From the NCBI GenBank assembly GCA_934149005.1, contig CAKPDN010000003.1:49544-113543 (forward strand): a stretch of DNA of 64,000 nucleotides, given 5' to 3'. The translations under genes and the position numbers were made by a program. Positions 12,810 to 48,051 of this stretch are shown here, piece after piece. Position 1 is the first letter of the stretch, and every line of letters begins with the position of its first letter. Under the pieces are notes generated by a model that did not search any database, was not told where the DNA came from, and saw only the letters and a list, made by a program, of their open reading frames with translations. This DNA is from an uncultured Clostridia bacterium (lineage in GTDB: Bacteria > Bacillota > Clostridia > TANB77 > CAG-508).

Positions 12810-13328
12810 ATGAAAACATTATATCCCAATATATATTTGAAAAAAGTAGAAGAAATAACAATACAGATGCTAATAAAAAACAGAATAAAACTATTGATAT
12901 TAGATGTAGACAACACACTAATAGACTACTATAAAAACCTATCAGAAGAAGTAATAAATTGGACAAAAGAAATGAAAGGACAAGGCATAAAACTATATAT
13001 ATTATCAAATACAAATGACAAAAAAAAGGTAGAAACAATAGCAAACAAATTAGATATACAATACAGACATTTTGCCATGAAACCACTAAAAAAAGGATTT
13101 AAATATATACAAAAACAAACTAATATAAAATCAGAAAACATAGCTGTAGTAGGAGATCAAATATTTACAGATGTAGTAGGCGGAAATAGATGTAAAATGT
13201 TCACAATACTAGTAGATCCAATAAATAAAGAAAAAGACTATTGGTATACAGCATGGAAAAGACCAATAGAAAACAAAATAAAAAATAAATATAAAACAAA
13301 AGAGGAGAAAAATAACGATGTATATTAA
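12810..13328 (+). CDS. YqeG-family HAD-superfamily (IIIA) phosphatase
   Basis: LILDVDNTL (DxDxT), KLYILSNT and GDQIFTDV motifs. RBS aaggagaataaatata-ATG at 12810. Confidence 0.65.
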   Translation: MKTLYPNIYLKKVEEITIQMLIKNRIKLLILDVDNTLIDYYKNLSEEVINWTKEMKGQGIKLYILSNTNDKKKVETIANKLDIQYRHFAMKPLKKGFKYIQKQTNIKSENIAVVGDQIFTDVVGGNRCKMFTILVDPINKEKDYWYTAWKRPIENKIKNKYKTKEEKNNDVY

Positions 13329-14070
13329 TGAAACACATATAGGATATTATGCAATTGTAGCAATAATTGGACTTTTTGTTGGAATGTTTGTGGATTGGAT
13401 GAACAAAAGATTACCAGAATACAAAAAAGTATTTTCAAAAGAGATATTTACAGAATACTTTGCAGAATTCAAACCAAACTATATATTAATGATAACAACA
13501 TCAGTGATTTATATAGGATTAGTATATTTTTATGGAATACGAAGTACATTTATAGCAAATTTAGATTTAATTAAATTTATGATAATAACACCAATGTTAT
13601 TATCCGCATTTGTAATAGATTTCAAACTTCAAATAATTCCAAACAGATTAAATTTAACAATGTTTGAAATTGGATTAGTAATAGCATTTCTATATGGATT
13701 ATCAGATGTAGCAATAACAATAAACATGGCATTAGGAATGTTAGCTGGAGCAGGTATATTTTTACTCATTACATTAGTTGGTGGAGCTATATATGGAAAA
13801 GAAGCAATGGGATTTGGTGATGTAAAACTAATGGGAGCATTAGGGTTATATTTTGGATTATCAAATATAATAGTAATAACACTACTATCTTTTCTAATAG
13901 GAGCAATATTAAGCATATTATTATTAGCTACAAAAATCAAAAAAATGGATGAATACATACCGTTTGGACCATTTATAGTTTTAGGAACATTTATAAGTAT
14001 TTTTATACCATTTGAAATAATAAAAAATGTTTTATTAGAAATATTTACATTGGGACTATATCAAGGATAA
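13318..14070 (+). CDS. Prepilin peptidase, A24 family, short TadV/CpaA-like form
   Basis: Polytopic membrane protein with GFGDVKLMGALG and IPFGPF motifs. It has no N-terminal Cys-tetrad or methyltransferase region. It overlaps the upstream gene by 11 nt. Confidence 0.75.
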   Translation: MYINETHIGYYAIVAIIGLFVGMFVDWMNKRLPEYKKVFSKEIFTEYFAEFKPNYILMITTSVIYIGLVYFYGIRSTFIANLDLIKFMIITPMLLSAFVIDFKLQIIPNRLNLTMFEIGLVIAFLYGLSDVAITINMALGMLAGAGIFLLITLVGGAIYGKEAMGFGDVKLMGALGLYFGLSNIIVITLLSFLIGAILSILLLATKIKKMDEYIPFGPFIVLGTFISIFIPFEIIKNVLLEIFTLGLYQG

Positions 14071-20618: not shown

Positions 20619-20807
20619 TTAATTAAATAAATTTCTTTCATATAAATCTTCTATATACACATCTTTTTCTTCAAAATTATCAACAAAACCAACCTTCACA
20701 ATATCGTTAGAATCATCTATTCCTTGAATCCATACAGGTCTATCATTATAAAAAATATCACATTTTTCCTTGTTATCTAAAATAGAATGAACTCGTTTTA
20801 AATCCAT
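20619..20807 (-). CDS. sspH: Small acid-soluble spore protein, H-type (SspH family)
   Basis: MDLKRVHSILDNKEKCDIFYNDRPVWIQGIDDSNDIVKV. It is the same size as B. subtilis SspH (MNIQRAKEL...VTYQGTPVYIQHVNEENGTARI) and follows its pattern. Confidence 0.6.
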   Translation of the reverse strand: MDLKRVHSILDNKEKCDIFYNDRPVWIQGIDDSNDIVKVGFVDNFEEKDVYIEDLYERNLFN

Positions 20808-20957: not shown

Positions 20958-23048
20958 ATGGAAAAATATGAAGAAATAGATTTTAAAAAAATTTTTAGTA
21001 TAATGCTTACTAATAAAATATTAATAATTTTAATTTTATTACTAAGTATAGTACTAGGATATTTTTATTCATATTATTATAAAAGACCTGAATATAAATC
21101 AACAGTAACAATGTTATTAAGTGTTAATGAAGAAAAGAACAGTAAAGAATTAACGCAAACAGATTTAACTTTAAATTCGAGTTTAATATCTACATATACT
21201 AGTATTATTAAAAGTACAAGTGTTATAGCTAAAACAATAGAAAATTTAGGATTAAATATATCAGTTGAAAACCTTCAAAAGGATATAGAAGTAATACAAG
21301 TAAAAAATACGCAATTTTTAAAAGTATCTGTAAAAAACAATAAACCGGAAGTGTCAAAAAATATAGCAAATGAATTAGTTAAAGTATTTGCAGAACAGAT
21401 AAAAGAAATATATAAAATACAAAATATAAATATAATAGATGAAGCAGAGATTGAAAATAAACCATGTAATGTAAATCATATTAAGGATATATGCATATCA
21501 GGAACATTAGGAGTATTTGTATCAATATTATTAATAATGTTTATATATTTATTTGATGATACTATAAAAGATGAAAAAGATTTAGAAGCACAATTAAAAC
21601 TAATGAACATTGGAGTGTTACCTTTAGATAATGAAAACAAGAAACTAATAACAGAAAGTAGTCCAAAATCAAATGTAGTAGAAGCAATTAAAACGATAAG
21701 AACAAATATATTGTATTCAACAAGGAAAAAGACAATTTTATTGACAAGTTGCAATTCTAGTGAAGGAAAAAGTTGGATTACAGATAATTTATCAGTAGCT
21801 TTTTCCAAAGCAGGTAAAAAAGTGATTTTAGTAGATACAAATTTAAGAAAAGAAAGCAATAAAAGTGAAATATTTGAAATAGAAAAAGGAGAAGGCTTAT
21901 CAGACTTTATTAAGGAAATAACAGATAATGATGAAGAAAACTTAGAAAAAGCAAGAAAATATATTAAAGAAACCAATATACCAAATTTACATGTATTGCA
22001 AAAAGGAACTATACCACCTAATCCATCAGAATTAATATCATCAAATAATATGAAAAAATTATTAAATTTACTAAAAAATATGTATGATTTAATTTTATTA
22101 GATGGTACACCATGTATGTTAATATCAGATAGTTTGGCATTATCAGCAATGTCAGATAGTACAATTATAGTAGTAGAAAATAAAAAGACAAAAATGAAGG
22201 ATTTAAAAAAAGTTAAGAAATTAATAGAAGAAGTTAACGGAAAAATTTTGGGAACAATAATAAATAAATCTGAAGTAAAAAAAGGTAAATATTATGGAAA
22301 AAAATATGGATATTATTATGGAAAAGATAATAACGAAGTAGAAAAAGTGGAGAAAAGACAAAAAATAATTTCATTAGAGAAAATTATAGAAATGGCAAGA
22401 CAAAACATAAATGAAAAACAGGAAATAAATGAAGAACCAAATGAAAACAAAGAAAAAATTGAAAACAATCAAGTTGAAACTGAAGAAAATAAAGAATATT
22501 ATGTAAAATTACAAAAGCTAGAAAATAAGTGTGAAGAAAACTTTGAAGTAATTATGAAAAAAATTATGAAAGAAGTAAATCAATTAAATGATGAAATTGA
22601 AAATCTTAGAAAGATACAATGTGTTGAAAATACTAATATTTTAAACAAAATAGGAAATATAAGCTATGAAGAAGAAATAGCGAAATTAAATGAAAAAATA
22701 GAAAATATAAATTACGAAGAAGAACTAGTAAAATTAAATGAAAAGATAGAAAATATAAATTACGAGGAAGAACTAGTAAAATTAAATGAAAAGATAGAAA
22801 GCATGAATTATAAAGAAGAAATAGAAGATGCAAGTCAAGAAAAAGATGAAATGAAAAAAATTTTGAAAAATGAAGAAAAGAAAGCGAACAATATAATAAG
22901 TTTTGAAGCATTTAAACATAAGAGAAAAAAGAATAAAAAAGTATTTCCAATAAATGAAACTATATCTTATGATGATTTACAAAGATTATCTACATATGTT
23001 ATAGATTTAAATGAGGACATACCTTTAAATATTGCATTAAGTGAATAA
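20958..23048 (+). CDS. Wzz-like chain-length determinant fused to a BY-type tyrosine kinase (CpsC-CpsD/CapA-CapB-like), with a C-terminal repeat-containing coiled-coil extension
   Basis: N-terminal TM plus Wzz region, a second TM, then a Walker A kinase domain (TSCNSSEGKSWITDNLSVAFSKAGKKVILVD, ILLDGTP). It has a Lys/Glu-rich tail. Confidence 0.7.
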   Translation: MEKYEEIDFKKIFSIMLTNKILIILILLLSIVLGYFYSYYYKRPEYKSTVTMLLSVNEEKNSKELTQTDLTLNSSLISTYTSIIKSTSVIAKTIENLGLNISVENLQKDIEVIQVKNTQFLKVSVKNNKPEVSKNIANELVKVFAEQIKEIYKIQNINIIDEAEIENKPCNVNHIKDICISGTLGVFVSILLIMFIYLFDDTIKDEKDLEAQLKLMNIGVLPLDNENKKLITESSPKSNVVEAIKTIRTNILYSTRKKTILLTSCNSSEGKSWITDNLSVAFSKAGKKVILVDTNLRKESNKSEIFEIEKGEGLSDFIKEITDNDEENLEKARKYIKETNIPNLHVLQKGTIPPNPSELISSNNMKKLLNLLKNMYDLILLDGTPCMLISDSLALSAMSDSTIIVVENKKTKMKDLKKVKKLIEEVNGKILGTIINKSEVKKGKYYGKKYGYYYGKDNNEVEKVEKRQKIISLEKIIEMARQNINEKQEINEEPNENKEKIENNQVETEENKEYYVKLQKLENKCEENFEVIMKKIMKEVNQLNDEIENLRKIQCVENTNILNKIGNISYEEEIAKLNEKIENINYEEELVKLNEKIENINYEEELVKLNEKIESMNYKEEIEDASQEKDEMKKILKNEEKKANNIISFEAFKHKRKKNKKVFPINETISYDDLQRLSTYVIDLNEDIPLNIALSE
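22663..22830 (+). repeat. 48-bp tandem repeat (about 3.4 copies) encoding the 16-aa unit NYEEELVKLNEKIENI inside the kinase gene
   Basis: Copies at 22663-22710, 22711-22758 and 22759-22806, plus a partial copy. Confidence 0.85.
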
Positions 23049-23189
23049 TAATATAAAATGTGTTAAAGATAGATTTATTAAAATTGTAAAATTTTATAAG
23101 TCTATTTTTTGACAATTTAATAGTTGACAAAAAGGAAAAAATACATGATAATATGTAAGATAAAATAAATAAAAAATGGAAGAAAAAAG

Positions 23190-24218
23190 ATGAATAAAAA
23201 AACTAAAAAAACAGTAAAAAATTTAATAATATTTATATTGTTAATAATACTAACATTCTATATAATTTTAAAAGATCAAGATGTAACAGAAATATTTAAA
23301 GTATTAGAAGATGTAAAAATACTATATATATTAATAGCAATAATATGTATGCTTATTTATATAATTTGTGAAGCAATAAATATAAGAAGAACATTAAAAG
23401 TGTTAGGGGAAGAAACAACACTAATAAGTAGTGTAAAATATGCATTAATAGGATTTTTCTTTAGTAGTATAACACCAGCAGCAAGTGGAGGACAGCCAAT
23501 GCAAATATATTATATGTATAAAGATAAAATTTCAGTAGCACATTCAACATTAGCACTACTAATAAATTTAAGTAGTATGCAAATAGTAACAATATCAATT
23601 GCATTAATAAGTATAATGTTCAATCATCATTACTTAAATCAAACTTTAATAATACTCTTTATATTGGGAATATCATTAAATGCAAGTGCACTTACATTGT
23701 TACTAATAGCAATTTTTTCTAAAAGATTGCTAAATAAATTAATTGATTTTGCAATAAAAATAATGAAAAAATTTAAAATAAAAAATATTGAAGAAAAGCA
23801 AATGAAGATAGAAGCAGAAGTTAGTAAATATCAAAATAGTAGTGATTATATTAAAAATAATAAATTTGTTATTTTTAATATAATTCTAACAACATATATT
23901 CAATTTATATTATTTTATAGTGTATCATATTGGGTATATTGTTCATTTGGATTAAATGAATACAATATTATGCAAATAGTATCAATTCAAGCTATTTTAT
24001 TTGCAACAGTATCAGGTATACCATCACCTGGAGCAGTAGGAGTAACAGAAGGTGGCTATATAGAAATATTTAAAACAATAATACCAAATAATATAATAAA
24101 TAGTGCAATGCTACTAAATAGAGGAATAAATTTTTATTTACTGGTAATTCTTAGTGGAATTGTAACTTTAATAAATATGACAAAAACGAAAAAAATGTTG
24201 AAAAAAAACGAATTATAA
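23190..24218 (+). CDS. Flippase-like membrane protein (UPF0104 / lysylphosphatidylglycerol-synthase-TM-region family, YbhN-like)
   Basis: Multi-TM protein with SSITPAASGGQPMQIYYM and a GxPSPGAVGVTEGG motif, characteristic of this family. Preceded by a promoter-like ttgacaaaaagg...tgataatat. Confidence 0.6.
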   Translation: MNKKTKKTVKNLIIFILLIILTFYIILKDQDVTEIFKVLEDVKILYILIAIICMLIYIICEAINIRRTLKVLGEETTLISSVKYALIGFFFSSITPAASGGQPMQIYYMYKDKISVAHSTLALLINLSSMQIVTISIALISIMFNHHYLNQTLIILFILGISLNASALTLLLIAIFSKRLLNKLIDFAIKIMKKFKIKNIEEKQMKIEAEVSKYQNSSDYIKNNKFVIFNIILTTYIQFILFYSVSYWVYCSFGLNEYNIMQIVSIQAILFATVSGIPSPGAVGVTEGGYIEIFKTIIPNNIINSAMLLNRGINFYLLVILSGIVTLINMTKTKKMLKKNEL

Positions 24219-24259
24219 TATATAATGCATAAAACAATGAAAAAAATAGGGGAAAAATT

Positions 24260-25102
24260 ATGAATATACTTTTATGTGGAAATGCAAAAGTTTTTGATGG
24301 AGCACTTACAGAACTTATATCAATTACAAATAAAACAAAAGAAATAGTAACATGTTATATTTTTACAATGGAACTTACAAGAATAAAACAAGAATATATA
24401 TCAATAAAAGATGAGCAAATAGAATTTTTAAATAAGGTAGTAAAAACAAAAAATCCAGAAAATAAAGTAATAAAAATAGATGTTACAGATTTGTATGAAA
24501 AGGAATTTAAAAACTGTAAGAATGAAAGTGCATATTGCACACCATATACATTATTAAGATTATTATCTGACTTAGTACCAGAAATACCAGATAAAATATT
24601 ATATTTAGATATTGATATGATGGCAGGAGATGATATATCAAAATTATATAATATAGATATAACTGATTATGAATATGCTGCAGTAAAAGAAAAATATGGT
24701 TCAGTATTTTTATATCCAGATTATATAAATGCTGGAATGCTATTATTGAATATGAAAAAAATAAAAGAGACAAGACTTTTAGAAAAAGCAAGAAATTTAA
24801 TAAAAAACAAAAAAATGTTATTTGCAGATCAGGATGCAATTTATTATTCAACAACCAAAAAATTATTATTACCAAGAATATATAATGAACAATCAAAATT
24901 TAATAAAAAGGATACGGTGATTTGTCATTTTTGTAAAAGACTTTTAGTTTGGCCATATCCACGTATAGAAAATTATAAGCAATGGCATATAAAAGAAGTT
25001 CATGAAATACTAAAATGCTATGCATTTGATGATGATTTAAATGAATATATGGAATTTAAAAAAGAATATGAAATAAGAGAGGGAGAAAAAATAAATGAAT
25101 AA
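24260..25102 (+). CDS. Glycosyltransferase family 8
   Basis: DxD (YLDIDMMAGDD) and NAGMLLLNM motifs. Confidence 0.65.
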   Translation: MNILLCGNAKVFDGALTELISITNKTKEIVTCYIFTMELTRIKQEYISIKDEQIEFLNKVVKTKNPENKVIKIDVTDLYEKEFKNCKNESAYCTPYTLLRLLSDLVPEIPDKILYLDIDMMAGDDISKLYNIDITDYEYAAVKEKYGSVFLYPDYINAGMLLLNMKKIKETRLLEKARNLIKNKKMLFADQDAIYYSTTKKLLLPRIYNEQSKFNKKDTVICHFCKRLLVWPYPRIENYKQWHIKEVHEILKCYAFDDDLNEYMEFKKEYEIREGEKINE

Positions 25103-26024
25103 GGAATTAAATGTAATACCAGTTTTTTATGCTGTTGATGATAATTATATAGCAATTTTAGGAACATCAATAAAATCTCTAATAGAAAATAGTTCAAAAG
25201 AAAATAAATATGAGATTAAAATATTATATACGAGTGTGTCAGAAAAAAATATAGATAGAATAAAAAAACTTGAACAAGAAAATGTTAGTATAGAATTTGT
25301 AAATGTAAGTGAGCAACTAAAAGAAATTGATTCAAAACTTTATACACGTAACTATTTTTCAAAGACAACATATTTTAGATTATATATACCAGAAATTTAT
25401 CCACAATATGATAAGGCTGTATATATAGATAGTGATACAATAGTTATAACAGACATTGCAAATTTATATAATGAAGATATTGGAAATAATTTATTAGGAG
25501 CAATACCAGATGGTGCAATTCAAGCAATACCAGTATTACAAGAATACGTAGAGAAAGTCGTTGGTGTTGTGGATTATAATAATTATTTTAATGCAGGAAT
25601 TCTTTTAATGAACTTAAAAGGATTAAGGGAATATAAACTACAAGAAAAATTCTTATATTTATTAGAAAAAATAAAATTTGAAGTTGCACAAGATCAAGAT
25701 TACTTAAACAGAATATGCAAAGGGAGAGTTAAATTATTAGACTTTGCTTGGAATAGAATGCCGGTTATGGGCGGAGAAGATAAGGAAATAAAAATAGTGC
25801 ATTATAATTTAGGATTTAAACCATGGTATTTTGATAATGTATTATTTCAAGAATATTTTTGGAAATATGCTAAGCAAACAGAATTCCTTGATCAAATAAA
25901 AGAAATGGGTAAAAACTACACAGAAGCGGACAAAGAAAGAGATGATGCAAGTAGTGTAAAACTTATAGAATTAGCTAAGAAAGAAGCCGATTGTGTAGGT
26001 GATGATAGAATAAATAGGAGATAG
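25095..26024 (+). CDS. Glycosyltransferase family 8
   Basis: YIDSDTIV, NAGILLMNL and HYNLGFKPW motifs. Overlaps the previous gene by 8 nt. Confidence 0.7.
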   Translation: MNKELNVIPVFYAVDDNYIAILGTSIKSLIENSSKENKYEIKILYTSVSEKNIDRIKKLEQENVSIEFVNVSEQLKEIDSKLYTRNYFSKTTYFRLYIPEIYPQYDKAVYIDSDTIVITDIANLYNEDIGNNLLGAIPDGAIQAIPVLQEYVEKVVGVVDYNNYFNAGILLMNLKGLREYKLQEKFLYLLEKIKFEVAQDQDYLNRICKGRVKLLDFAWNRMPVMGGEDKEIKIVHYNLGFKPWYFDNVLFQEYFWKYAKQTEFLDQIKEMGKNYTEADKERDDASSVKLIELAKKEADCVGDDRINRR

Positions 26025-26028
26025 TTTT

Positions 26029-27012
26029 ATGAATACAAGAAGGAAATTAAAGGGCAATAAAGAAAAGAGAAATTTAACAGATATAAAAAATATATTAATA
26101 AGAAAAGAAAATACTGAAAAAAACAAAAGTATAGAAAATGAAAAACAAGTATCAATAAAAAAATCACAAAACAGATTAGATGTACTAAAAAAAATAGAAA
26201 AACTAGAAATGGAAGGAAAATTTGATATTGATGTTGAAGAAGACCCACCAACAATAGTACTAACTCCTGAAAATATAGATTATTTAAGAACAACAATGAC
26301 TAGCAAAATAAAAAGAATATTTGCAAATGAAGTTGGAGAAAGATTTTTAGACAATTTATTAAAAAATAATAAATTAATTATAAAACAAATAAATGGACTT
26401 GAAAATTTAACCAAAATACAAACAGGAGCAATTATAACATGTAATCATTTTAATCCATTTGATTGTTTTACAATAGAAAAAACATTTAGATTATCTGGGC
26501 AAGCAAAAACAAAAAAATTACATAAAGTAATAAGAGAAGGTAATTATACTAATTTTCCAGGACTTTATGGATTTTTATTTAGAAACTGTGACACTTTACC
26601 ATTAAGTTCAAATAAAAGAACGATGGTAGAATTTATGAAAGCGGTAGACACACTGTTACAAAAAGGTGATTTTATATTAATATACCCAGAACAAAGTATG
26701 TGGTGGAATTATAGAAAACCAAAGCCACTAAAACATGGAGCATTTAAAATTGCAACTAGAAACAATGTTCCAATTATACCAATATTTATAACAATGAATG
26801 ATAGTAATATAATAGGAGAGGATGGATTCCCTATTCAAGAATATACTGTAAATATAGCAGAACCAATTTATCAAGATAAAAATTTAACACAAAGAGAAAA
26901 TACAGAACAAATGTTAAATAAAAATTTTGAAATTTGGAAAAATATATATGAAGAATTTTACGGAATATCACTTGAATATACAACTAAAAAGGAAACTATG
27001 ATAAATGAATAA
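26029..27012 (+). CDS. Lysophospholipid (PlsC-like) acyltransferase
   Basis: HX4D motif (CNHFNPFD) and a YPEQS block. Confidence 0.6.
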   Translation: MNTRRKLKGNKEKRNLTDIKNILIRKENTEKNKSIENEKQVSIKKSQNRLDVLKKIEKLEMEGKFDIDVEEDPPTIVLTPENIDYLRTTMTSKIKRIFANEVGERFLDNLLKNNKLIIKQINGLENLTKIQTGAIITCNHFNPFDCFTIEKTFRLSGQAKTKKLHKVIREGNYTNFPGLYGFLFRNCDTLPLSSNKRTMVEFMKAVDTLLQKGDFILIYPEQSMWWNYRKPKPLKHGAFKIATRNNVPIIPIFITMNDSNIIGEDGFPIQEYTVNIAEPIYQDKNLTQRENTEQMLNKNFEIWKNIYEEFYGISLEYTTKKETMINE

Positions 27013-27784
27013 TAAAAAGACAATTTATTATGAAGATGAATTAAATGATGAATTTTCAACAGTAAAAATTATACCAAGAAAAATAGATGAGAATTATAAA
27101 TATATACACAAAAACGTAATATGGAATGCATGTGCATTCATTTTACAAAATGTATTAAGTCTTCCAATAAAATATTTATATGCTAAAATAAAATTCAAAA
27201 ATAAAATTATAGGAAAAGAAAAATTAAAGAAATATAAAAAACAAGGATATTTTATATATGGAAATCATACACAAGCATTTGCAGATACATTTTTAATAAG
27301 CAATAGTGTATTCCCAAAAATAAATTATTTAATAGTGAATCCAGAAAATGTATCTATGAAATTTTTAGGAAATGTTGTACAAATGTTAGGAGCAATACCA
27401 ATACCAAGCAATAAAGAAGCAATGAAAAATTTTTTAGAAACAATAGAAAAAAGAATAAAAAAAGGATATTCAATAACAATATTTCCAGAAGCACACATAT
27501 GGCCATATTATACAAAAATAAGACCATTTAAATCTGTATCATTTAAGTATCCTGTGAAATTAGGAACACCAACGTTCTGCATGACCAATACATATCAAAG
27601 TTATGGGAAAAATGGGGCTAAAGTAAAAATAGTATCATATATAGATGGTCCTTTTTTTCCAGATGAAAATTTGAATATTAAAGAGCAACAAGACAATTTG
27701 AGAAATAAAGTTTATAATACAATGGTAGAAAGATGTAAAAATAGTAATATTGAAGTAATTAAATACGAGAAAAAAATAGGATAA
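27005..27784 (+). CDS. Lysophospholipid (PlsC-like) acyltransferase
   Basis: GNHTQAFAD (HX4D) and IFPEAH motifs. Overlaps the upstream gene by 8 nt. Confidence 0.6.
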   Translation: MNNKKTIYYEDELNDEFSTVKIIPRKIDENYKYIHKNVIWNACAFILQNVLSLPIKYLYAKIKFKNKIIGKEKLKKYKKQGYFIYGNHTQAFADTFLISNSVFPKINYLIVNPENVSMKFLGNVVQMLGAIPIPSNKEAMKNFLETIEKRIKKGYSITIFPEAHIWPYYTKIRPFKSVSFKYPVKLGTPTFCMTNTYQSYGKNGAKVKIVSYIDGPFFPDENLNIKEQQDNLRNKVYNTMVERCKNSNIEVIKYEKKIG

Positions 27785-33199: not shown

Positions 33200-34127
33200 T
33201 TAAAAGGAAGCTCCTAGCACTAAAATTCCTAAATTATCTTTATAAATTTCATCAAATTGAGAAATAGGAAGAGGATTTACACCAATTCCAGCTTCTATTG
33301 TATATCCAGGTCTCCTATATTCTTGCAAAAACCAGTCTTTATAACCTGCAAAACTTGAGTTATAGGGCGTATTTGCTAATTTGTAACCACTCACGTTGGA
33401 AAATGCTTCTCCAATACCTTTTGATTGTGATGGTTCATAGTTTTGAAATTGCCAATAAATTTCTTTACCTTGCGTGTGATATGATAATATTAATCCAAAA
33501 TTATTTTTTGGGGTAAAATTATATATAGCTAAATCCTCTGGTTCACTAAGAGGACTATATCCTACAAAATCACGAGGAGCAGGAGATGTAAAACCTTGTG
33601 AATATTTTATATTTTTAGCAGTTTCCCACCCAGCAGGAAATTGCAGATTCAAATCTACGCCATTAATATTAGCTTTCCAACCGATTAGGAAAAGGAATAT
33701 CTGGAAATTGCTTAGATATGTTCAAAACATTTAAATATGTAGCAGAAGATTTGTTTAAATTCCCTGTAACTAAATCAACTCCATCAGGATTAATCATAGG
33801 CATAATATAAATAGAAACAGAATTAAATAAATTTCTAACAGAATATCCACATAGTGCAGAATTATTGTTATATGAAATACAATAATCTTCAATAAATTTC
33901 ATAAGCAAAACACTTGTAATCCACTCATTTGCATGTATTGAAGCAGAATAAAAAACTTTTTTTCCACCCATACCAAGTTTAATAACATAAATATTTTTCC
34001 CTAAAACACTATTTCCAACAGTTTGGATATTCAAAAAAGGATATGTATGATTTAAAGTAACAAGATTTTGAGACATTAAAGAATAGTTATAACTAATATT
34101 TGTAGGAACAATACCCATAAAAATCAC
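33200..34127 (-). pseudogene. M14-family zinc carboxypeptidase (gamma-D-glutamyl-L-diamino acid endopeptidase-like), split by a frameshift in a T-run
   Basis: N-terminal part 33669-34127 carries the HxxE zinc site (SASIHANEW). C-terminal part 33200-33652 carries the second His (SYHTQGKEIYW). The frame changes at about 33685-33700 (ttcctttttcc), so either the gene is disrupted or there is a homopolymer error. Confidence 0.55.
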
Positions 34128-34200: not shown

Positions 34201-34559
34201 GGGGATGTAATGGTTTCGACATATTACTAGAAAAATAGATAGCAAGTAGTGGATTCTCGTTGGCCACTTAAAAAAACGGGAAATTAAGAATAAACGCTAA
34301 CAATAATAGAGAATTAGCATACGCTGCCTAATTGCAGTGTCATCTTATTTAAGTAGCCTACTGATTTAAATAGGGTGTCAAATTAAAGTAGGAAACAAAA
34401 CTATTTTTGTTTTAGAAATAGTGGGTATTTTATAAAACTATACTTTTAATTAGCCTGTTTATCGGCGAGTTAAAAATGAATAAAAAAGATAAAATAAACT
34501 TGTAGAAGTCTATTTGGAAAGTATTATGGACAGGAGTTCGACTCTCCTCATCTCCACCA
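34201..34559 (+). ncRNA. ssrA: tmRNA (transfer-messenger RNA)
   Basis: 5-prime GGGGATGTAATGGTTTCGACA, 3-prime GGACAGGAGTTCGACTCTCCTCATCTCCACCA. The internal tag ORF gct aac aat aat aga gaa tta gca tac gct gcc taa gives (A)NNNRELAYAA. Confidence 0.9.
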
Positions 34560-34591
34560 AAATTTCCTAGTATATGTAAGGAGATAATGTA

Positions 34592-35740
34592 ATGTCTGTA
34601 GAAAAAATTAAAGCACTTGGAAAAAATAAATCTATAGAAAATTTTAACATTTTGGTTAAAATGTATAATAGCAATATAACTGTTGAGGAAAAAAGAGAGG
34701 TTGTATCATCTATTGGTAGGCAAAAAGAATTAGACTTGATTTATGACTTTTTAAAAGAGAATGCTTTTAAAAAGAATTATATGGATATAATTTATCAGAT
34801 GTTTAGAACAACACTTGTATATTATTATGATGAACGATTTAAAAATTTATGTGAAAAAATGAAGAAATATTATAATAATGAAGTAATGAACAAAATGTAT
34901 GAATTTAAAATGGCACCAAAATTTAATAAAGAAAGACTACATAAAAGTTCTATTACTAAACCTACAATTTTGGAAGGTGATAGTTCTGAAACCTTGAAAA
35001 ATATAAAAGATGGGGATATTCAATTAATATTTACATCACCACCTTATTATAATGCAAGGGAATATTCAGATTATATTAATTATAGAAAATATTTAGATGA
35101 TTTAAAAAAAGTGTTTATAGAATGTAATAGAATTTTACAGGATGGTAGATTTATTATAGTAGATGTATCTCCTGTAATTACCAAAAGGCCGGGAAGAGAA
35201 TATGAATCTATAAGATATCCTATTCATTTTGATTTGCATAATGTATTAATTAATTCTGGATTTTATTTTGTTGATGAAATTATATGGGAAAAGCCCGAAC
35301 CATCTGTTCCGAACAGGATTGGTGGATATATCCAAACTAGAAATCCATTAGCATATAAGCCAAATTGCGTTACAGAAAGCATTATGGTATATAGGAAAAA
35401 ATCAGACTTTTTATTAGATAAAAATATAAATTTTTATACTTCAAATCCTGATTATGTTCCTAATGATGAAAAAGTAGATAGATCTAATATATGGAAAATT
35501 GCTCCTGCCAATAACAAGAATCATCCTGCTGTGTTTCCAGAGAAACTATGTAAAAAAATTTTGAAATATTACTCTTTTAAAGGTGATACTGTTTTAGATC
35601 CATTTGCAGGAAGTGGAACATTTGGAAAAGCTGCTTATAAAATGGGAAGAATACCTGTTATGTGTGAAATGAATGAGGATTATATAAAAGTAATTAAGGA
35701 GGAAAATATATATGATGACATTTCAACATCAAGTAATTGA
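34592..35740 (+). CDS. DNA methyltransferase, beta-class amino-MTase (N4-C or N6-A) with an N-terminal extension of about 120 aa
   Basis: Motif IV TSPPYY precedes motif I LDPFAGSGTFG (beta order). It starts 33 nt after ssrA. Confidence 0.7.
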   Translation: MSVEKIKALGKNKSIENFNILVKMYNSNITVEEKREVVSSIGRQKELDLIYDFLKENAFKKNYMDIIYQMFRTTLVYYYDERFKNLCEKMKKYYNNEVMNKMYEFKMAPKFNKERLHKSSITKPTILEGDSSETLKNIKDGDIQLIFTSPPYYNAREYSDYINYRKYLDDLKKVFIECNRILQDGRFIIVDVSPVITKRPGREYESIRYPIHFDLHNVLINSGFYFVDEIIWEKPEPSVPNRIGGYIQTRNPLAYKPNCVTESIMVYRKKSDFLLDKNINFYTSNPDYVPNDEKVDRSNIWKIAPANNKNHPAVFPEKLCKKILKYYSFKGDTVLDPFAGSGTFGKAAYKMGRIPVMCEMNEDYIKVIKEENIYDDISTSSN

Positions 35741-36584
35741 GAATACAATTGAAAAGTTATTAAAAGGCAAAGATTATAGAGAAGAAGTAGTTAATGCAAT
35801 AAATGCTGAGTTTTTTGATTTTACCATTACATTTTTTAAAAAAATAGTTTCAGCTAAATTGGACTCACAAGAGATTAGCTTGGATTGGTATTCAAAAAAC
35901 TTTATAAATAATGCTAAAATTAATCCAGCTGAAAGTGCAATTTTTGCTGGTATGAATAAAAAGACTATTACTAATATATATGGTACTGCATCAAAAGATG
36001 TAGTTTTGGATGTTGCTAATGCTAATTTTAATTATTTAGCTTCCTTGATTGATGAGTTGAAACAAGATGCTACTGATGAAATAGGAATATCTATAAAGCT
36101 AACATATCTTGATGTATATGTAGAATTGGATTTAGCTGAAAGTCTAATTGTAATTAATGCACTAGCAACAAAAAAAGCTGCTATTCGTGGAGGTGCTTGG
36201 AGTTCTATAGGAAAAAAAGTAGAAAAACCATTAGTTACAAAATTATGTTTATTATGTGGAGTTCCAATAAATCATATTGATTCAAGTATTTTTATTAGAA
36301 ACATGGAATTGGATTATGATAGAGAAGTTGACTATAAAATATATGATAGAGATATGAATGAAATAAGAGTTGAAGTTAAATTAATGGGAAAAGGAAATCC
36401 GGAAAGTGCAGATGTTATTTATGCAAGAGATACAAAGATGTTTATAGCTGATACTTTAAGTTTACAAAATAAACATCAATTTGATTGTAATAACATTCCA
36501 TATATAGAAATGAAAAATAATAATGATGTTATAGGAGATTTTAAAAAAGCTCTTGATAGACTAAATGTTCCATATACTAAATAA
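35712..36584 (+). CDS. Putative Type II restriction endonuclease partner of the upstream methyltransferase
   Basis: Overlaps the MTase gene by 29 nt. I recognise no conserved family; the call is by context only. Confidence 0.35.
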   Translation: MMTFQHQVIENTIEKLLKGKDYREEVVNAINAEFFDFTITFFKKIVSAKLDSQEISLDWYSKNFINNAKINPAESAIFAGMNKKTITNIYGTASKDVVLDVANANFNYLASLIDELKQDATDEIGISIKLTYLDVYVELDLAESLIVINALATKKAAIRGGAWSSIGKKVEKPLVTKLCLLCGVPINHIDSSIFIRNMELDYDREVDYKIYDRDMNEIRVEVKLMGKGNPESADVIYARDTKMFIADTLSLQNKHQFDCNNIPYIEMKNNNDVIGDFKKALDRLNVPYTK

Positions 36585-46758: not shown

Positions 46759-48051
46759 ATGAAAATATTAATGTTAACATGGGAATACCCACCAAGAGTG
46801 GTAGGAGGAATATCAAGAGTAGTATATGATTTATCAAAAACCTTAATAAAAGATGGACACGATGTAACAGTTGTAACATATAAAGAAGGAGAGGCACCAG
46901 ACTTTGAAGATGATAAAGGTGTAAAAGTATATAGGACTGGAAATTATATGATAAATTCAAACAATTTTATAGACTGGATAATGCAAATGAATTTTAATAT
47001 GATTGCAAAAGCAAATGAAATAATAGCAAAAGAAGGAAAATTTGATGTAATACATGCACATGACTGGCTAGTAGCATATGCGGCAAAAACATTAAAAGAT
47101 TCATATAATATTCCAATAGTTGCAACAATACATGCAACAGAGGCTGGAAGAAATAGTGGAATACATGATGAAACACAAAGATATATAAATGATACAGAAT
47201 GGATGCTAACATATGAAGCATCAGAAGTAATAGTAAATAGTAATTATATGAAAAATGAATTACAAAGATTATTTGGATTACCATATGAAAAAATAAATGT
47301 GATACCAAATGGAGTAAATATGAGTCTATTCAATGGAATAGAAAGAGACTATAATTTTAGAAGAAAATTTGCAATGGACAATGAAAAAATAATACTATTT
47401 ATGGGAAGACTAGTGTATGAAAAAGGAGTACAGCATTTAATAGCAGCAATGCCCAAAATATTAAATGGATATAATGACACAAAACTCGTTATATGTGGTA
47501 AAGGCGGAATGATAGATGAATTAAAAGCCCAAGTAAATGCTTTAGGAATATCAGAAAAAGTATATTTTGCAGGATATATGAAGGGAAAAGATGTACAAAA
47601 AATGTATAAAGCAGCAGATATATCAGTATTCCCAAGTACATATGAACCATTTGGAATAGTGGCACTAGAAGCAATGCTATCAGAAAATCCAGTGGTAGTA
47701 TCAGACATAGGAGGTCTAAATGAAATAGTACAACATAAAGAAAATGGAATGAAAACATATTGTGGAAATCCAAATTCAATAGCAGATGCAATATTAGAAC
47801 TATTATATGACCATAAACTATGTGCAGAAATAACAAAAAAAGCAAAAAACAAAGTCAGAAATGAATACAATTGGAGTAAAATATCACAAGATACTCACTT
47901 TGCATATCAAAAAGCAATTTGCCAATCAATGGCTGAAAAACAAAAAAGAGAACTTGAACAAGAAAGAGCAAACAAAACTAAAAAAGCTAAAAACACAGAA
48001 AAAGAAATATCAAATTTACTTACGTTTAAAAAACGTAATGCATATGCATAA
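46759..48051 (+). CDS. Glycosyltransferase family 4 (GT-B) with a Lys-rich C-terminal tail
   Basis: EPFGIVALEAM (EX7E) motif. Confidence 0.7.
   Translation: MKILMLTWEYPPRVVGGISRVVYDLSKTLIKDGHDVTVVTYKEGEAPDFEDDKGVKVYRTGNYMINSNNFIDWIMQMNFNMIAKANEIIAKEGKFDVIHAHDWLVAYAAKTLKDSYNIPIVATIHATEAGRNSGIHDETQRYINDTEWMLTYEASEVIVNSNYMKNELQRLFGLPYEKINVIPNGVNMSLFNGIERDYNFRRKFAMDNEKIILFMGRLVYEKGVQHLIAAMPKILNGYNDTKLVICGKGGMIDELKAQVNALGISEKVYFAGYMKGKDVQKMYKAADISVFPSTYEPFGIVALEAMLSENPVVVSDIGGLNEIVQHKENGMKTYCGNPNSIADAILELLYDHKLCAEITKKAKNKVRNEYNWSKISQDTHFAYQKAICQSMAEKQKRELEQERANKTKKAKNTEKEISNLLTFKKRNAYA

What the first reader, a model, noticed from the sequence alone, without database searches (positions are those of the whole stretch)
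23190..27784. Compact flippase-like + 2xGT8 + 2xPlsC-acyltransferase cluster: candidate acylated glycolipid pathway
Five co-oriented, overlapping genes sit directly after the Wzz-kinase gene: a UPF0104 flippase-like protein, two family-8 retaining glycosyltransferases and two lysophospholipid acyltransferases. There is no undecaprenyl-phosphate priming transferase. This points to synthesis and translocation of a diglycosyl, multiply acylated lipid (for example a membrane glycolipid or lipoteichoic-acid anchor analogue) rather than a classical capsule.
Basis: inference. Interest (0 to 1): 0.5.

Follow-up and report, generated by a model that had tools for sequence, protein, structure and literature searches.

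The report
Acylated glycolipid gene cassette with flippase
A five-gene operon in an uncultured gut Clostridium joins a lipid-flippase-like membrane protein to the same two sugar-transferases and two fatty-acyl-transferases that flank the hop-resistance pump gene horA on beer-spoilage plasmids, so it most likely builds a still unidentified acylated membrane glycolipid and moves it to the cell surface.

Summary
In detail: five co-oriented, tightly packed genes at 23190-27784 encode an MprF-type flippase-like protein, two GT8 glycosyltransferases and two PlsC-superfamily acyltransferases.

The conserved unit is the four enzymes. They recur as a block in about 115 related loci, in many genomic contexts. 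GT8b and AT1 are fused into one protein in 8 of 35 genome loci and 38 of 79 metagenome loci.

The flippase gene is a frequent neighbour, far above chance, but not an obligate one: 35 of 71 flippase-anchored loci, and 6 of 36 AT1-anchored loci.

The Wzz-kinase gene is a rare but recurrent neighbour. In a few relatives it comes with CpsB, a GT2 and a DUF1972 glycosyltransferase. No priming transferase, Wzx or Wzy match was found in any Pfam-annotated flank.

The four enzymes are one-to-one homologues (31-39% identity) of the genes that flank horA on brewery Lactobacillaceae plasmids. These are transcribed at more than three times the level of horA in beer, and their biochemistry is unknown.

Best reading: cytoplasmic-face assembly of an acylated alpha-glycosyl lipid, followed by translocation. 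The product is not identified.

I rate this a new variant of a known but uncharacterised cassette.

The parts
20958..23048 (+). Fused Wzz/CpsC-like domain plus BY tyrosine kinase (CpsD-like), with a roughly 240-aa coiled-coil tail. A facultative neighbour, not part of the conserved core.
   Evidence: PF02706 E=1.2e-15; TIGR01007 E=4e-48. Two TM segments, Walker A GKS and a Tyr cluster. 40-45% identical to the split CpsC and CpsD that precede the cassette in L016 and L093. Absent upstream of the cassette in 34 of 35 genome loci. A 48-bp x 3.7 tandem repeat at 22647-22824 lies in the tail.
23124..23152 (+). Promoter-like site (TTGACA-17-GATAAT) in the WzzK-Flip spacer. Suggestive only.
   Evidence: 11 of 12 matches. 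However, the region has fewer promoter-like hits than its shuffles (62 against 71.9), so this is not evidence on its own. No terminator is predicted after WzzK.
23190..24218 (+). Flippase-like membrane protein of the MprF-flippase / PplT / UPF0104 family.
   Evidence: PF03706 E=3.8e-33, full length; TIGR00374. Seven hydrophobic segments. Orthologues sit directly upstream of the four-enzyme block in 35 of 71 informative genome loci, across several genomic contexts.
24260..25102 (+). GT8a: divergent family-8 retaining-type glycosyltransferase.
   Evidence: PF01501 E=3.1e-15. The DxD (YLDIDM), NAG, DQD and His motifs are kept in 36 orthologues. 34% identical over the full length to the glycosyltransferase beside horA on pPECL-8, and 38% to the Roseburia copy.
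25095..26024 (+). GT8b: family-8 glycosyltransferase of the LgtC/WbbM type.
   Evidence: PF01501 E=7.7e-46. PDB sequence hits: WbbM 2.8e-30 and LgtC 1.4e-21. DxD, DQD and H..KPW motifs are conserved. Fused to AT1 in many relatives. 39% identical to the pPECL-8 GT8.
26029..27012 (+). AT1: PlsC-superfamily acyltransferase with no predicted TM segment and a canonical HX4D motif (NHFNPFD).
   Evidence: PF01553 E=5.3e-14. Motifs invariant in 16 orthologues. AF2 model pLDDT 91.3. Foldseek PDB: LpxM 3.8e-8, PlsC 2.8e-7, PatA about 1e-6, GPATs. The family is small: 949 clusters among 1.84 billion representatives.
27005..27784 (+). AT2: PlsC-superfamily acyltransferase with a variant HX5D motif (NHTQxFAD) and an N-terminal helix at residues 38-61 in the low-confidence model.
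   Evidence: PF01553 E=1.1e-10. HX5D and FPEAHIWPYYTKIRPF are invariant in 18 orthologues and kept in L090, Roseburia and Pediococcus homologues. The AF2 model is poor (pLDDT 52). No hydrophobic segment passes the TM threshold.

Best explanation
**What it is.** The locus is an operon for making an acylated glycolipid at the cytoplasmic face of the membrane and moving it to the outer leaflet.

**The core.** The core is four soluble or peripheral enzymes. GT8a and GT8b use nucleotide sugars to add two alpha-linked hexoses in turn to a lipid acceptor. The likeliest acceptor is diacylglycerol or a glycosyl-diacylglycerol; a phospholipid head group is possible. AT1 works in tandem with GT8b and is fused to it in many relatives. 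AT1 and AT2 add fatty acyl chains from acyl-ACP or acyl-CoA, either to sugar hydroxyls or to a lyso intermediate.

**Translocation.** The MprF-type flippase-like protein encoded first in the operon then moves the product across the membrane.

**The kinase.** The Wzz/BY-kinase gene upstream is an occasional regulatory or assembly partner, not part of the core.

**Shown here.** Family memberships, intact catalytic motifs, the AT1 fold, conservation of the block, the gene fusions, enrichment of the flippase gene next to the block, and homology to the horA-flanking genes.

**Inferred.** The acceptor, the sugars, the positions acylated, the order of the steps, and the flipping itself.
For: **1. The four enzymes are inherited as a unit.**
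- 35 genome loci carry Flip-GT8a-GT8b-AT1-AT2 in several genomic contexts.
- 41 of 46 AT1-anchored metagenome loci with at least 1.5 kb flanks carry the full set.
- A distant Clostridia genome has AT2-GT8a-GT8b::AT1 at 37-50% identity.
- Roseburia sp. 831b has AT2-GT8a-GT8b-AT1.

**2. GT8b and AT1 are fused.** This occurs in 8 of 35 genome loci, 38 of 79 metagenome loci and 14 of 68 family representatives.

**3. AT1 has a lipid-acyltransferase fold.** The top 11 solved matches are LpxM, PlsC, PatA, plant GPATs and human GPAT1. PatA and LpxM acylate glycolipids.

**4. Both GT8s keep their catalytic motifs**. Their nearest solved relatives, LgtC and WbbM, act on lipid-anchored acceptors at the inner leaflet (plus established knowledge).

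**5. Only Flip has predicted TM segments**, which fits cytoplasmic synthesis followed by flipping.

**6. Flip is linked to the block in four arrangements.** It lies directly upstream, directly downstream (L158), 1.6-3.7 kb downstream (L123, L130) or 6.3 kb upstream (L171). One gene in a roughly 1.5 Mb genome would be expected within 10 kb about 1% of the time.

**7. There is precedent.** UPF0104/MprF-like flippase genes sit in the glycolipid operons hexSDF (PMC10128005) and gpgSDF (PMC12713373). See also the PplT survey.

**8. The Lactobacillaceae homologues flank HorA.** HorA is an ABCB half-transporter related to BmrA, ABCB4 and MsbA. The flanking genes are described as phospholipid or cell-wall genes with transcript levels in beer more than three times those of horA (PMC3765258). 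They occur only on beer-spoiler plasmids (PMC6533708 Table 6).

**9. No priming transferase, Wzx or Wzy Pfam match** appears in any Pfam-annotated flank.
Against: - No product is known for any homologue.
- To my knowledge no bacterial GT8 has been shown to glycosylate diacylglycerol. Known glycolipid synthases belong to GT4, GT28, GT2 or GT21.
- The flippase is absent from the flanks of 30 of 36 well-flanked AT1-anchored loci. Orthologous Flip genes stand alone in 36 genomes. Flip may therefore be a generalist whose adjacency is convenient rather than dedicated.
- Flippase activity is unproven even for HexF and GpgF.
- In five relatives the cassette abuts polysaccharide-type genes and CpsBCD.
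- AT2 departs from the canonical HX4D motif, and its model is too poor to use.
Confidence: 0.55

Rival explanations
1. The cassette is the lipid-anchor (primer) module of a larger surface polymer, in the style of a lipoglycan or LTA. The five genes would make and flip an acylated glycolipid. Other enzymes would then extend it or ligate a polysaccharide to it. The Wzz/BY-kinase would control chain length or assembly.
For: A Wzz/BY-kinase lies directly upstream in the window. The series CpsC-CpsD-CpsB-small TM protein(-Wzz::pseudokinase) lies directly upstream in L016, L093, L095 and L096, preceded by GT2 and DUF1972-GT, and in L093 also by UGDH and an epimerase. L046 keeps GT2, DUF1972, Glf and O-acyltransferases upstream. 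The logic parallels AcPIM2 leading to LM/LAM, and the pneumococcal LTA anchor (established knowledge).
Against: Only 1 of 35 genome loci and none of 79 AT1-anchored metagenome loci have Cps genes adjacent. Most cassettes sit among housekeeping genes. The window has no CpsB, GT2, DUF1972-GT, ligase or polymerase near the cassette.
Confidence: 0.15
2. The genes are accessory enzymes of an undecaprenyl-linked capsule or cell-wall polysaccharide. The GT8s would add alpha-hexose residues. The acyltransferases would O-acylate the repeat unit. The flippase-like protein would flip the lipid-linked intermediate.
For: The Cps-type neighbours seen in a subset of relatives. GT8b's best solved relative is the O-antigen galactosyltransferase WbbM.
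Against: PlsC-fold enzymes are not the known polysaccharide O-acyltransferases; those belong to the Acyl_transf_3, LbH or SGNH families, and L046 carries its own Acyl_transf_3 genes. No priming transferase, Wzx or Wzy was found in any Pfam-annotated flank. The block occurs alone in most loci, on small Lactobacillaceae plasmids and on a Roseburia megaplasmid.
Confidence: 0.1
3. The product is a glycerol-free acyl-sugar, in the style of a biosurfactant such as trehalose, rhamno- or mannosylerythritol lipids. The two GT8s would build a disaccharide or glycoside. The two acyltransferases would esterify it. A transporter would export it.
For: The gene content, two GTs plus two ATs plus a translocator, mirrors known glycolipid-surfactant clusters (established knowledge). 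Four of the five proteins lack TM segments. AT1 resembles the sugar-acylating enzymes PatA and LpxM as closely as it resembles PlsC.
Against: Characterised PF01553 enzymes act on glycerol-based or lipid acceptors. MprF-type flippases are known only for membrane glycerolipids. No fatty-acid-activating or hydroxylating genes accompany the block.
Confidence: 0.1
4. There is no common product. AT1 and AT2 would be spare housekeeping PlsC paralogues for phospholipid synthesis or remodelling. The GT8s would be unrelated stress or protein-glycosylation enzymes that merely share an operon.
For: [quoted passage not shown]
Against: The GT8b::AT1 fusions are repeated. The four genes are co-inherited strictly from Clostridia to Lactobacillaceae, even though gene order changes. 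Their distribution is patchy and accessory. No serine-rich adhesin or SecA2 genes lie nearby.
Confidence: 0.05

Closest known systems
horA gene cluster of beer-spoilage Lactobacillaceae plasmids (for example pPECL-8 of Pediococcus claussenii and pUCCLBBS124_D of Levilactobacillus brevis)
   Same: It has one-to-one homologues of all four enzymes: GT8a 34% (E=8e-58), AT2 33% (E=1e-50, same HX5D motif), GT8b 39% (E=6e-77) and AT1 31% (E=1.5e-37). The genes are tightly clustered beside a candidate lipid or drug translocator. The literature calls them phospholipid, cell-wall or membrane-modification genes of unknown function (PMC3765258, PMC4394401, PMC6533708).
   Different: The translocator there is HorA, an ABCB half-transporter on the opposite strand between GT8a and AT2, not an MprF-type protein. 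The gene order is GT8a / horA / AT2-GT8b-AT1. The cluster is plasmid-borne and spreads horizontally among brewery isolates. There is no Wzz-kinase. The window copy is chromosomal, in a gut Clostridia lineage.
HexSDF (Clostridioides difficile) and GpgSDF (Pseudomonas aeruginosa) glycolipid operons
   Same: Each is a small operon in which cytoplasmic enzymes glycosylate and then modify a membrane lipid. Each includes a stand-alone UPF0104/MprF-like protein as the predicted flippase.
   Different: The synthases there are GT28-like or GT4, and the modifying enzyme is a deacetylase that produces an amino sugar. Here there are two GT8s and two PlsC-type acyltransferases. No homology exists beyond the flippase family.
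MprF (aminoacyl-phosphatidylglycerol synthase/flippase) and stand-alone PplT/YbhN proteins
   Same: Flip matches the MprF flippase-domain family over its full length (PF03706, TIGR00374). As with MprF, a synthase works with a flippase of this family.
   Different: There is no aminoacyl-PG synthase domain. Sequence similarity to solved MprF structures is undetectable. The substrate is unknown.
Acylated phosphatidylinositol mannoside pathway (PimA, PimB', PatA) and lipid A-core assembly (LpxL/LpxM, GT8 core transferases, MsbA)
   Same: The logic is the same: two sugars and extra acyl chains are added to a lipid at the cytoplasmic face, followed by flipping. AT1's best structural matches include PatA and LpxM. 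GT8b resembles LgtC. HorA resembles MsbA.
   Different: The resemblance is in fold and pathway logic only. The GT families differ from the PIM pathway (GT4 there). The ATs belong to Pfam PF01553, not the LpxL/PatA family PF03279. There is no inositol or lipid A chemistry, and the host is Gram-positive.
CpsC/CpsD (Wzz-like adaptor plus BY-kinase) of Firmicute capsule loci
   Same: The upstream gene has the Wzz domain with two TM segments, Walker A and the C-terminal Tyr cluster. It is 40-45% identical to split CpsC and CpsD in relatives.
   Different: The two parts are fused into one polypeptide with a 240-aa repeat-containing coiled-coil tail. The window has no CpsB, no priming transferase and no Wzx or Wzy.

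Membership tests
MprF-flippase / PplT / UPF0104 (PF03706, TIGR00374) | Full-length match to the family profile above the curated cut-off | tested here: met
   PF03706 scores 115.7 bits against a cut-off of 33.4, covering profile positions 5-301 of 302. TIGR00374 scores 92 bits against 43.2.
MprF-flippase / PplT / UPF0104 (PF03706, TIGR00374) | Polytopic membrane protein with about 8 TM helices | tested here: met
   A simple hydropathy scan finds seven segments above threshold. The scan is crude, so the exact number is uncertain.
MprF-flippase / PplT / UPF0104 (PF03706, TIGR00374) | Lipid translocation activity | not testable with these tools
   This needs a leaflet-accessibility assay. It is unproven even for HexF and GpgF.
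Glycosyltransferase family 8 (PF01501) | Profile match plus the DxD, DQD and C-terminal His motifs | tested here: met
   GT8a E=3.1e-15 and GT8b E=7.7e-46. The motifs are conserved in 36 orthologues of each. GT8a has H-F-C-K in place of the H..KPW motif.
Glycosyltransferase family 8 (PF01501) | Retaining transfer from a nucleotide sugar, giving an alpha linkage | not testable with these tools
   Inferred from family knowledge only.
PlsC/GPAT/LPLAT acyltransferases (PF01553) | Profile match above the cut-off | tested here: met
   AT1 scores 52.6 bits and AT2 41.9 bits, against a cut-off of 23. Both fall below the TIGR00530 equivalog-level cut-off, so neither is a canonical PlsC.
PlsC/GPAT/LPLAT acyltransferases (PF01553) | Catalytic HX4D motif | tested here: met
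   For AT1: NHFNPFD, with H140 and D145 invariant.
PlsC/GPAT/LPLAT acyltransferases (PF01553) | Catalytic HX4D motif (AT2) | tested here: not met
   AT2 has NHTQxFAD, that is H88-X5-D94. This is invariant in 18 orthologues and kept in Roseburia and Pediococcus homologues. AT2 is a variant subfamily.
PlsC/GPAT/LPLAT acyltransferases (PF01553) | Acyltransferase fold | tested here: met
   For AT1: model pLDDT 91.3. Foldseek finds PlsC 5kym at E=2.8e-7 (TM 0.61 on the target), LpxM, PatA and GPATs. For AT2 the result is inconclusive because the model has pLDDT 52.
horA-cluster four-enzyme set of beer-spoilage LAB | One-to-one homologues of the two glycosyltransferases and two acyltransferases, clustered together | tested here: met
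   Best hits pair one-to-one, at E=1.5e-37 to 6e-77 over 80% of the window protein (AT1) to its full length.
horA-cluster four-enzyme set of beer-spoilage LAB | horA (ABC half-transporter) embedded in the cluster; plasmid location | tested here: not met
   The window has no ABC exporter next to the cassette. The flanks are chromosomal housekeeping genes. HorA-like genes lie near the block in only 3 Clostridia loci, 1.3-6 kb away.
horA-cluster four-enzyme set of beer-spoilage LAB | Contribution to hop tolerance or envelope change | not testable with these tools
   The phenotype is reported only for Lactobacillaceae (PMC3765258). The Feyereisen 2020 paper is not held.
HexSDF / GpgSDF-type operon | Lipid glycosyltransferase of GT4 or GT28 type plus a deacetylase | tested here: not met
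   The cassette contains no GT4 or GT28 synthase and no deacetylase. Only the flippase family is shared.
Canonical Wzy-dependent capsule locus | Priming phosphoglycosyl transferase (WbaP/CpsE or WecA type) | tested here: not met
   No PF02397 or PF00953 match among the window ORFs scanned or in the Pfam-annotated flanks of relatives.
Canonical Wzy-dependent capsule locus | Wzx flippase and Wzy polymerase | tested here: inconclusive
   No Pfam match was found. However, Wzy proteins often escape Pfam, and the sequence upstream of L016, L046, L093 and L095 is cut at 10 kb or at a contig end.
Canonical Wzy-dependent capsule locus | CpsC/CpsD chain-length and kinase pair, and CpsB phosphatase | tested here: inconclusive
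   The window has a CpsC::CpsD fusion but no CpsB. All three are present in L016, L093 and L095.

The most novel reading that the evidence does not exclude
**The proposal.** The four-enzyme block makes one specific acylated alpha-glycolipid. Whichever translocator has been recruited beside the block then moves that lipid to the outer leaflet.

**Two different translocators.** In gut Clostridia the recruited translocator is an MprF-type flippase-like protein. On beer-spoilage plasmids it is the ABCB half-transporter HorA. This would be a non-orthologous replacement.

**First consequence.** HorA's native cargo would be this lipid, or at least include it. Plasmid-borne hop tolerance would then come largely from remodelling of the outer leaflet rather than from hop-acid efflux alone.

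**Second consequence.** A widespread, uncultured group of gut Clostridia would display alpha-linked acyl-glycolipids. Lipids of that chemical class are recognised by CD1d-restricted T cells and by Mincle.
Probability: 0.2. Interest if true: 0.75.

Novelty: new variant of a known kind. Interest (0 to 1): 0.55.

Why it matters
**An open question in brewing microbiology.** The four enzymes have been noted for about twenty years as the conserved genes around horA. Nobody knows what they make.

**What this analysis adds.** The same set is chromosomal and widespread in human and animal gut Clostridia, and it is often fused. In one large clade it is coupled to an MprF-type flippase instead of HorA. 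That points to a lipid product which needs translocation.

**Testable predictions in cultured strains.** Suitable strains are Levilactobacillus brevis, Pediococcus claussenii and Roseburia sp. 831b.

**If the product is an alpha-glycosyl acyl-lipid, it would:**
- add a new biosynthetic route, GT8 plus PlsC-type acyltransferases, to Gram-positive glycolipid biology;
- bear on tolerance to membrane-active compounds such as hop acids, and possibly bile or antimicrobial peptides;
- identify a possible source of immunologically active lipids in the gut.

Tried and rejected
- **AF2 model of AT2** from a shallow alignment (14 sequences, 74-90% identical to the query) came out at pLDDT 52. It was too poor for a fold search and was not used.
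- **Sequence searches of the PDB** with AT1, AT2 and Flip, as single sequences or profiles, found nothing relevant.
- **The afdb50 fold library** was not available.
The closest relative of L016's Flip lies on a 1.2-kb contig. I therefore could not see beyond 10 kb upstream of the cps-linked cassettes.
- **The first metagenome scan**, with a very diverse AT1 alignment, failed because no stretch was conserved enough. I repeated it with a narrower alignment.
- **HorA-like ABC exporters as replacements for Flip** in Flip-less Clostridia loci: only 3 loci have one, 1.3-6 kb from the block. Rejected as a general rule.
- **The idea that the roughly 650-aa genes often lying directly upstream of the cassette are WzzK relatives.** By sequence inspection, with no family search run, they look like ThrRS, a PBP and an FtsH-like AAA protein.
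- **Literature search** for GT8 plus diacylglycerol or glycolipid plus acyltransferase found nothing relevant.
- **Feyereisen et al. 2020** (AEM; PMC6974642) could not be read. My link between gene 'pD0015' and the GT8a homologue rests on memory of the abstract and on CDS order, and it needs checking.
- **The promoter-like site before Flip** is not statistically supported.
- **Whole-genome presence or absence** of the block in genomes where Flip stands alone could not be tested.

Full report
**1. Observation**

The window has 25-30% G+C. It comes from an uncultured gut Clostridia lineage. Its nearest records are metagenome-assembled genomes (MAGs) named 'Clostridium sp. CAG:389', '28_17' and 'CAG:575'. 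One relative has a 1.55-Mb chromosome, OV788638. An sspH gene marks the organism as a spore-former.

| Gene | Coordinates | Length | Family match |
|---|---|---|---|
| Flip | 23190-24218 | 342 aa | PF03706, E=3.8e-33, full length |
| GT8a | 24260-25102 | 280 aa | PF01501, E=3.1e-15 |
| GT8b | 25095-26024 | 309 aa | PF01501, E=7.7e-46 |
| AT1 | 26029-27012 | 327 aa | PF01553, E=5.3e-14 |
| AT2 | 27005-27784 | 259 aa | PF01553, E=1.1e-10 |

- Two gene junctions overlap by 8 bp. The other two are gaps of 4 and 41 bp.
- Every gene has a ribosome-binding site.
- The upstream gene, 20958-23048, is a fused Wzz/CpsC plus BY-kinase with Walker A and a Tyr cluster. It has a 240-aa coiled-coil tail that contains a 48-bp x 3.7 repeat.
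- The flanks are housekeeping genes: efp, DUF881, tRNA-Trp, glyS and sspH upstream; nth, tig, clpP, clpX and tmRNA downstream.
- None of the roughly 47 window ORFs I scanned matches a priming transferase, Wzx or Wzy.

**2. What is conserved: scan anchored on Flip**

I scanned one genome per species for Flip relatives and obtained 80 loci.

- 35 loci carry GT8a-GT8b-AT1-AT2 directly downstream of Flip.
- 36 loci do not, although they have enough downstream sequence to show it.
- 9 loci end at a contig edge.

The five-gene string occurs in several genomic contexts. These include beside nth-tig-clpPX, after a DedA/VTT gene, and after ABC or two-component genes.

In a neighbour-joining tree of Flip, cassette-linked and stand-alone copies are interleaved. 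So this is one orthologous flippase family, and the enzyme block has been gained or lost next to it repeatedly.

The Wzz-kinase is upstream in none of these loci except L016.

**3. What is conserved: scan anchored on AT1**

The first scan was biased by its anchor, so I repeated it with AT1 as the anchor in metagenome contigs.

- Of 79 loci, 41 of the 46 with at least 1.5 kb flanks hold the full set of two GT8s and two ATs.
- GT8b and AT1 are fused into one protein of about 600 aa in 38 of 79 loci.
- Only 6 of the 36 loci with at least 5 kb on both sides carry Flip.

Where Flip is present, its position varies. It lies directly upstream, directly downstream (L158), 1.6-3.7 kb downstream (L123, L130) or 6.3 kb upstream (L171). 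More distant copies run AT2-GT8a-GT8b::AT1 (L168-L176).

In a Clostridia genome, GCA_017534305, the order is TetR-AT2-GT8a-GT8b::AT1-alpha/beta hydrolase, with no Flip.

The AT1 family is small: 949 clusters among 1.84 billion representatives. Of 68 representatives, 14 carry a GT8 domain.

My conclusion is that the invariant unit is the four enzymes. GT8b and AT1 work together. Flip is a strongly enriched but facultative partner; chance would place it within 10 kb about 1% of the time.

**4. The enzymes**

- **GT8s.** Both keep the DxD, NAG, DQD and His motifs across 36 orthologues. GT8b resembles WbbM (E=2.8e-30) and LgtC (E=1.4e-21).
- **AT1.** It has a canonical NHFNPFD motif and YPEQS. With a 59-sequence alignment its model reaches pLDDT 91.3. 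Its only significant solved neighbours are lipid acyltransferases: LpxM, PlsC (TM 0.61 on the target), PatA, plant GPATs and human GPAT1.
- **AT2.** It has an invariant HX5D variant, NHTQxFAD. This variant is conserved as far as Roseburia and Pediococcus.
- **Topology.** Only Flip has predicted TM segments. The chemistry should therefore happen at the cytoplasmic face.

**5. Link to a known cluster**

I ran tblastn with AT1 and AT2 against PLSDB plasmids. The hits were almost all brewery Lactobacillaceae plasmids: Pediococcus, Levilactobacillus, Loigolactobacillus, Fructilactobacillus and Secundilactobacillus. A Roseburia megaplasmid was the best hit in both searches, and the AT1 search also gave single Subdoligranulum and Nocardia records, which I did not examine.

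On pPECL-8 and pUCCLBBS124_D the arrangement is glycosyltransferase / horA (opposite strand) / acyltransferase - GT8 - acyltransferase. Each gene is the one-to-one homologue of a window gene:

| Window gene | Identity to pPECL-8 homologue |
|---|---|
| GT8a | 34% |
| AT2 | 33% |
| GT8b | 39% |
| AT1 | 31% |

Roseburia sp. 831b has AT2-GT8a-GT8b-AT1.

The literature describes this cluster as follows.

[quoted passage not shown] Their transcript levels in beer are more than three times those of horA. Their role is unknown (PMC3765258; also PMC4394401).
- In L. brevis, two 'LPS biosynthesis glycosyltransferases' and two acyltransferases co-occur, and only on beer-spoiler plasmids (PMC6533708 Table 6).
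- A 2020 paper, known to me by title only, reports a plasmid-encoded putative glycosyltransferase involved in hop tolerance. From memory the gene is pD0015. The 15th CDS of plasmid D is the GT8a homologue. This identification is my inference.

HorA itself is an ABCB half-transporter. It is closest to BmrA and related to ABCB4 and MsbA.

**6. The polysaccharide question**

In five relatives the cassette follows co-oriented polysaccharide-type genes.

- **L016:** GT2 - DUF1972-GT - CpsC - CpsD - CpsB - small TM protein - cassette.
- **L093, L095, L096:** the same series plus a second Wzz::P-loop fusion, which lacks the Walker lysine and the Tyr cluster. In L093 UGDH and an epimerase lie further upstream.
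- **L046:** Acyl_transf_3, Glf, GT2 and DUF1972.

The window's WzzK is 40-45% identical to those split CpsC and CpsD proteins. The kinase-cassette adjacency is therefore recurrent, but rare: 1 of 35 genome loci and none of 79 metagenome loci.

No priming transferase, Wzx or Wzy appears in any Pfam-annotated flank. However, the upstream view stops at 10 kb or at a contig end.

This keeps alive the idea that in some strains the lipid serves as an anchor, or is co-regulated with a surface polymer. It does not make the cassette part of a canonical cps locus.

**7. Mechanism**

The best-supported reading has three steps.

1. Peripheral GT8s add alpha-linked sugars to a membrane lipid at the inner leaflet.
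2. AT1, coupled to GT8b, and AT2 add acyl chains.
3. A translocator moves the product outward.

The translocator would be Flip here. HorA in Lactobacillaceae is the speculative counterpart; section 8 gives its probability.

The logic parallels three known systems:

- acyl-PIM2 synthesis (PimA, PimB', PatA);
- lipid A-core assembly (LpxL/LpxM, GT8 core transferases, MsbA);
- the flippase-containing operons hexSDF and gpgSDF.

The acceptor, the sugars, the acyl positions and the flipping are all inferred.

**8. Verdict**

- This is a new variant of a known but biochemically uncharacterised cassette.
- Confidence that the product is an acylated membrane glycolipid is about 0.55.
- The boldest reading still open is that two unrelated translocators serve one lipid, with HorA as its floppase. 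I give that a probability of about 0.2.

Noticed in passing
window 51821-62502 (+), with 13318-14070: Thirteen tightly packed, co-oriented ORFs (133-691 aa). The ten scanned have no Pfam or PHROG match; three small ones (59320-60742) were not scanned. Four begin MENA(S/A)(K/E)AL followed by a hydrophobic stretch, which looks pilin-like. One is a 691-aa polytopic protein, and two look like ParA/CpaE-type proteins. Together with the prepilin peptidase (PF01478) at 13318-14070, this looks like a very divergent Tad/type IV pilus-like locus.
   Followed up: partly
window 20958-23048; tail repeat at 22647-22824: CpsC and CpsD are fused into one 696-aa protein, which is unusual for Firmicutes, where the two are normally split. 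The protein carries a 240-aa coiled-coil tail containing a 48-bp x 3.7 tandem repeat that encodes KIENINYEEE(L/I)VKLNE units.
   Followed up: partly
L093 8580-9776; L095 8538-9734; L096 7570-8766: A second Wzz::P-loop fusion (398 aa) lies directly upstream of Flip. Its Walker A lysine is replaced (VGNT instead of GKS) and it has no C-terminal Tyr cluster, so it is probably a pseudokinase. It follows CpsC-CpsD-CpsB and a conserved 112-136-aa protein with three TM segments.
   Followed up: partly
window 33200-33652 (-) and 33669-34127 (-): Two adjacent ORFs match the C-terminal and N-terminal parts of one M14 zinc carboxypeptidase. This is a split or frameshifted gene. The same split pair matches relatives.
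   Followed up: no
window 34201-36584: The tmRNA gene (34201-34559) is followed immediately by a type II restriction-modification pair: an N6/N4 methylase at 34592-35740 and a CfrBI-like endonuclease at 35712-36584. This may be an island inserted at ssrA.
   Followed up: no
window 983-4136: A Mob_Pre relaxase fragment (1670-2479, minus strand) lies among ORFs without family matches. This is probably the remnant of a mobilisable element. In relatives the region upstream of the cassette is likewise a variable spot, carrying an integrase, KAP NTPases and Mob_Pre.
   Followed up: no
window 46759-48051 (+): A GT4 glycosyltransferase (430 aa) lies upstream of era and recO. Its nearest solved relatives are archaeal-type GlgA and the MshA and PimA types. 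Its orthologue lies two genes upstream of the stand-alone Flip in L029, L030, L036 and L073. It is a candidate housekeeping glycolipid synthase, but this is unproven.
   Followed up: partly
AT2 family: window 27005-27784; L090 6342-7130; L177 6230-7006; L178 5398-6174: The catalytic motif is HX5D (NHTQxxxD) instead of the canonical HX4D. It is conserved from gut Clostridia to Lactobacillaceae plasmids, together with an invariant PEAH(I/V)WPYYTKIRPF block.
   Followed up: partly
L038 11084-12067; L028 15381-16343; L090 9872-10633: Alpha/beta-hydrolase genes of the Hydrolase_4 or lysophospholipase-like type recur next to the stand-alone Flip (L038 type) and after the cassette (L028, L090). This may be a deacylation partner. 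In L146 and L148 a gene that looks by eye like a DAG kinase (GGDGT motif; no family search was run) precedes the block.
   Followed up: no
window 20619-20807 (-): A small acid-soluble spore protein gene (SspH, PF08141) lies between the 168-aa ORF without family matches and the Wzz-kinase gene. The organism is a spore-former.
   Followed up: no
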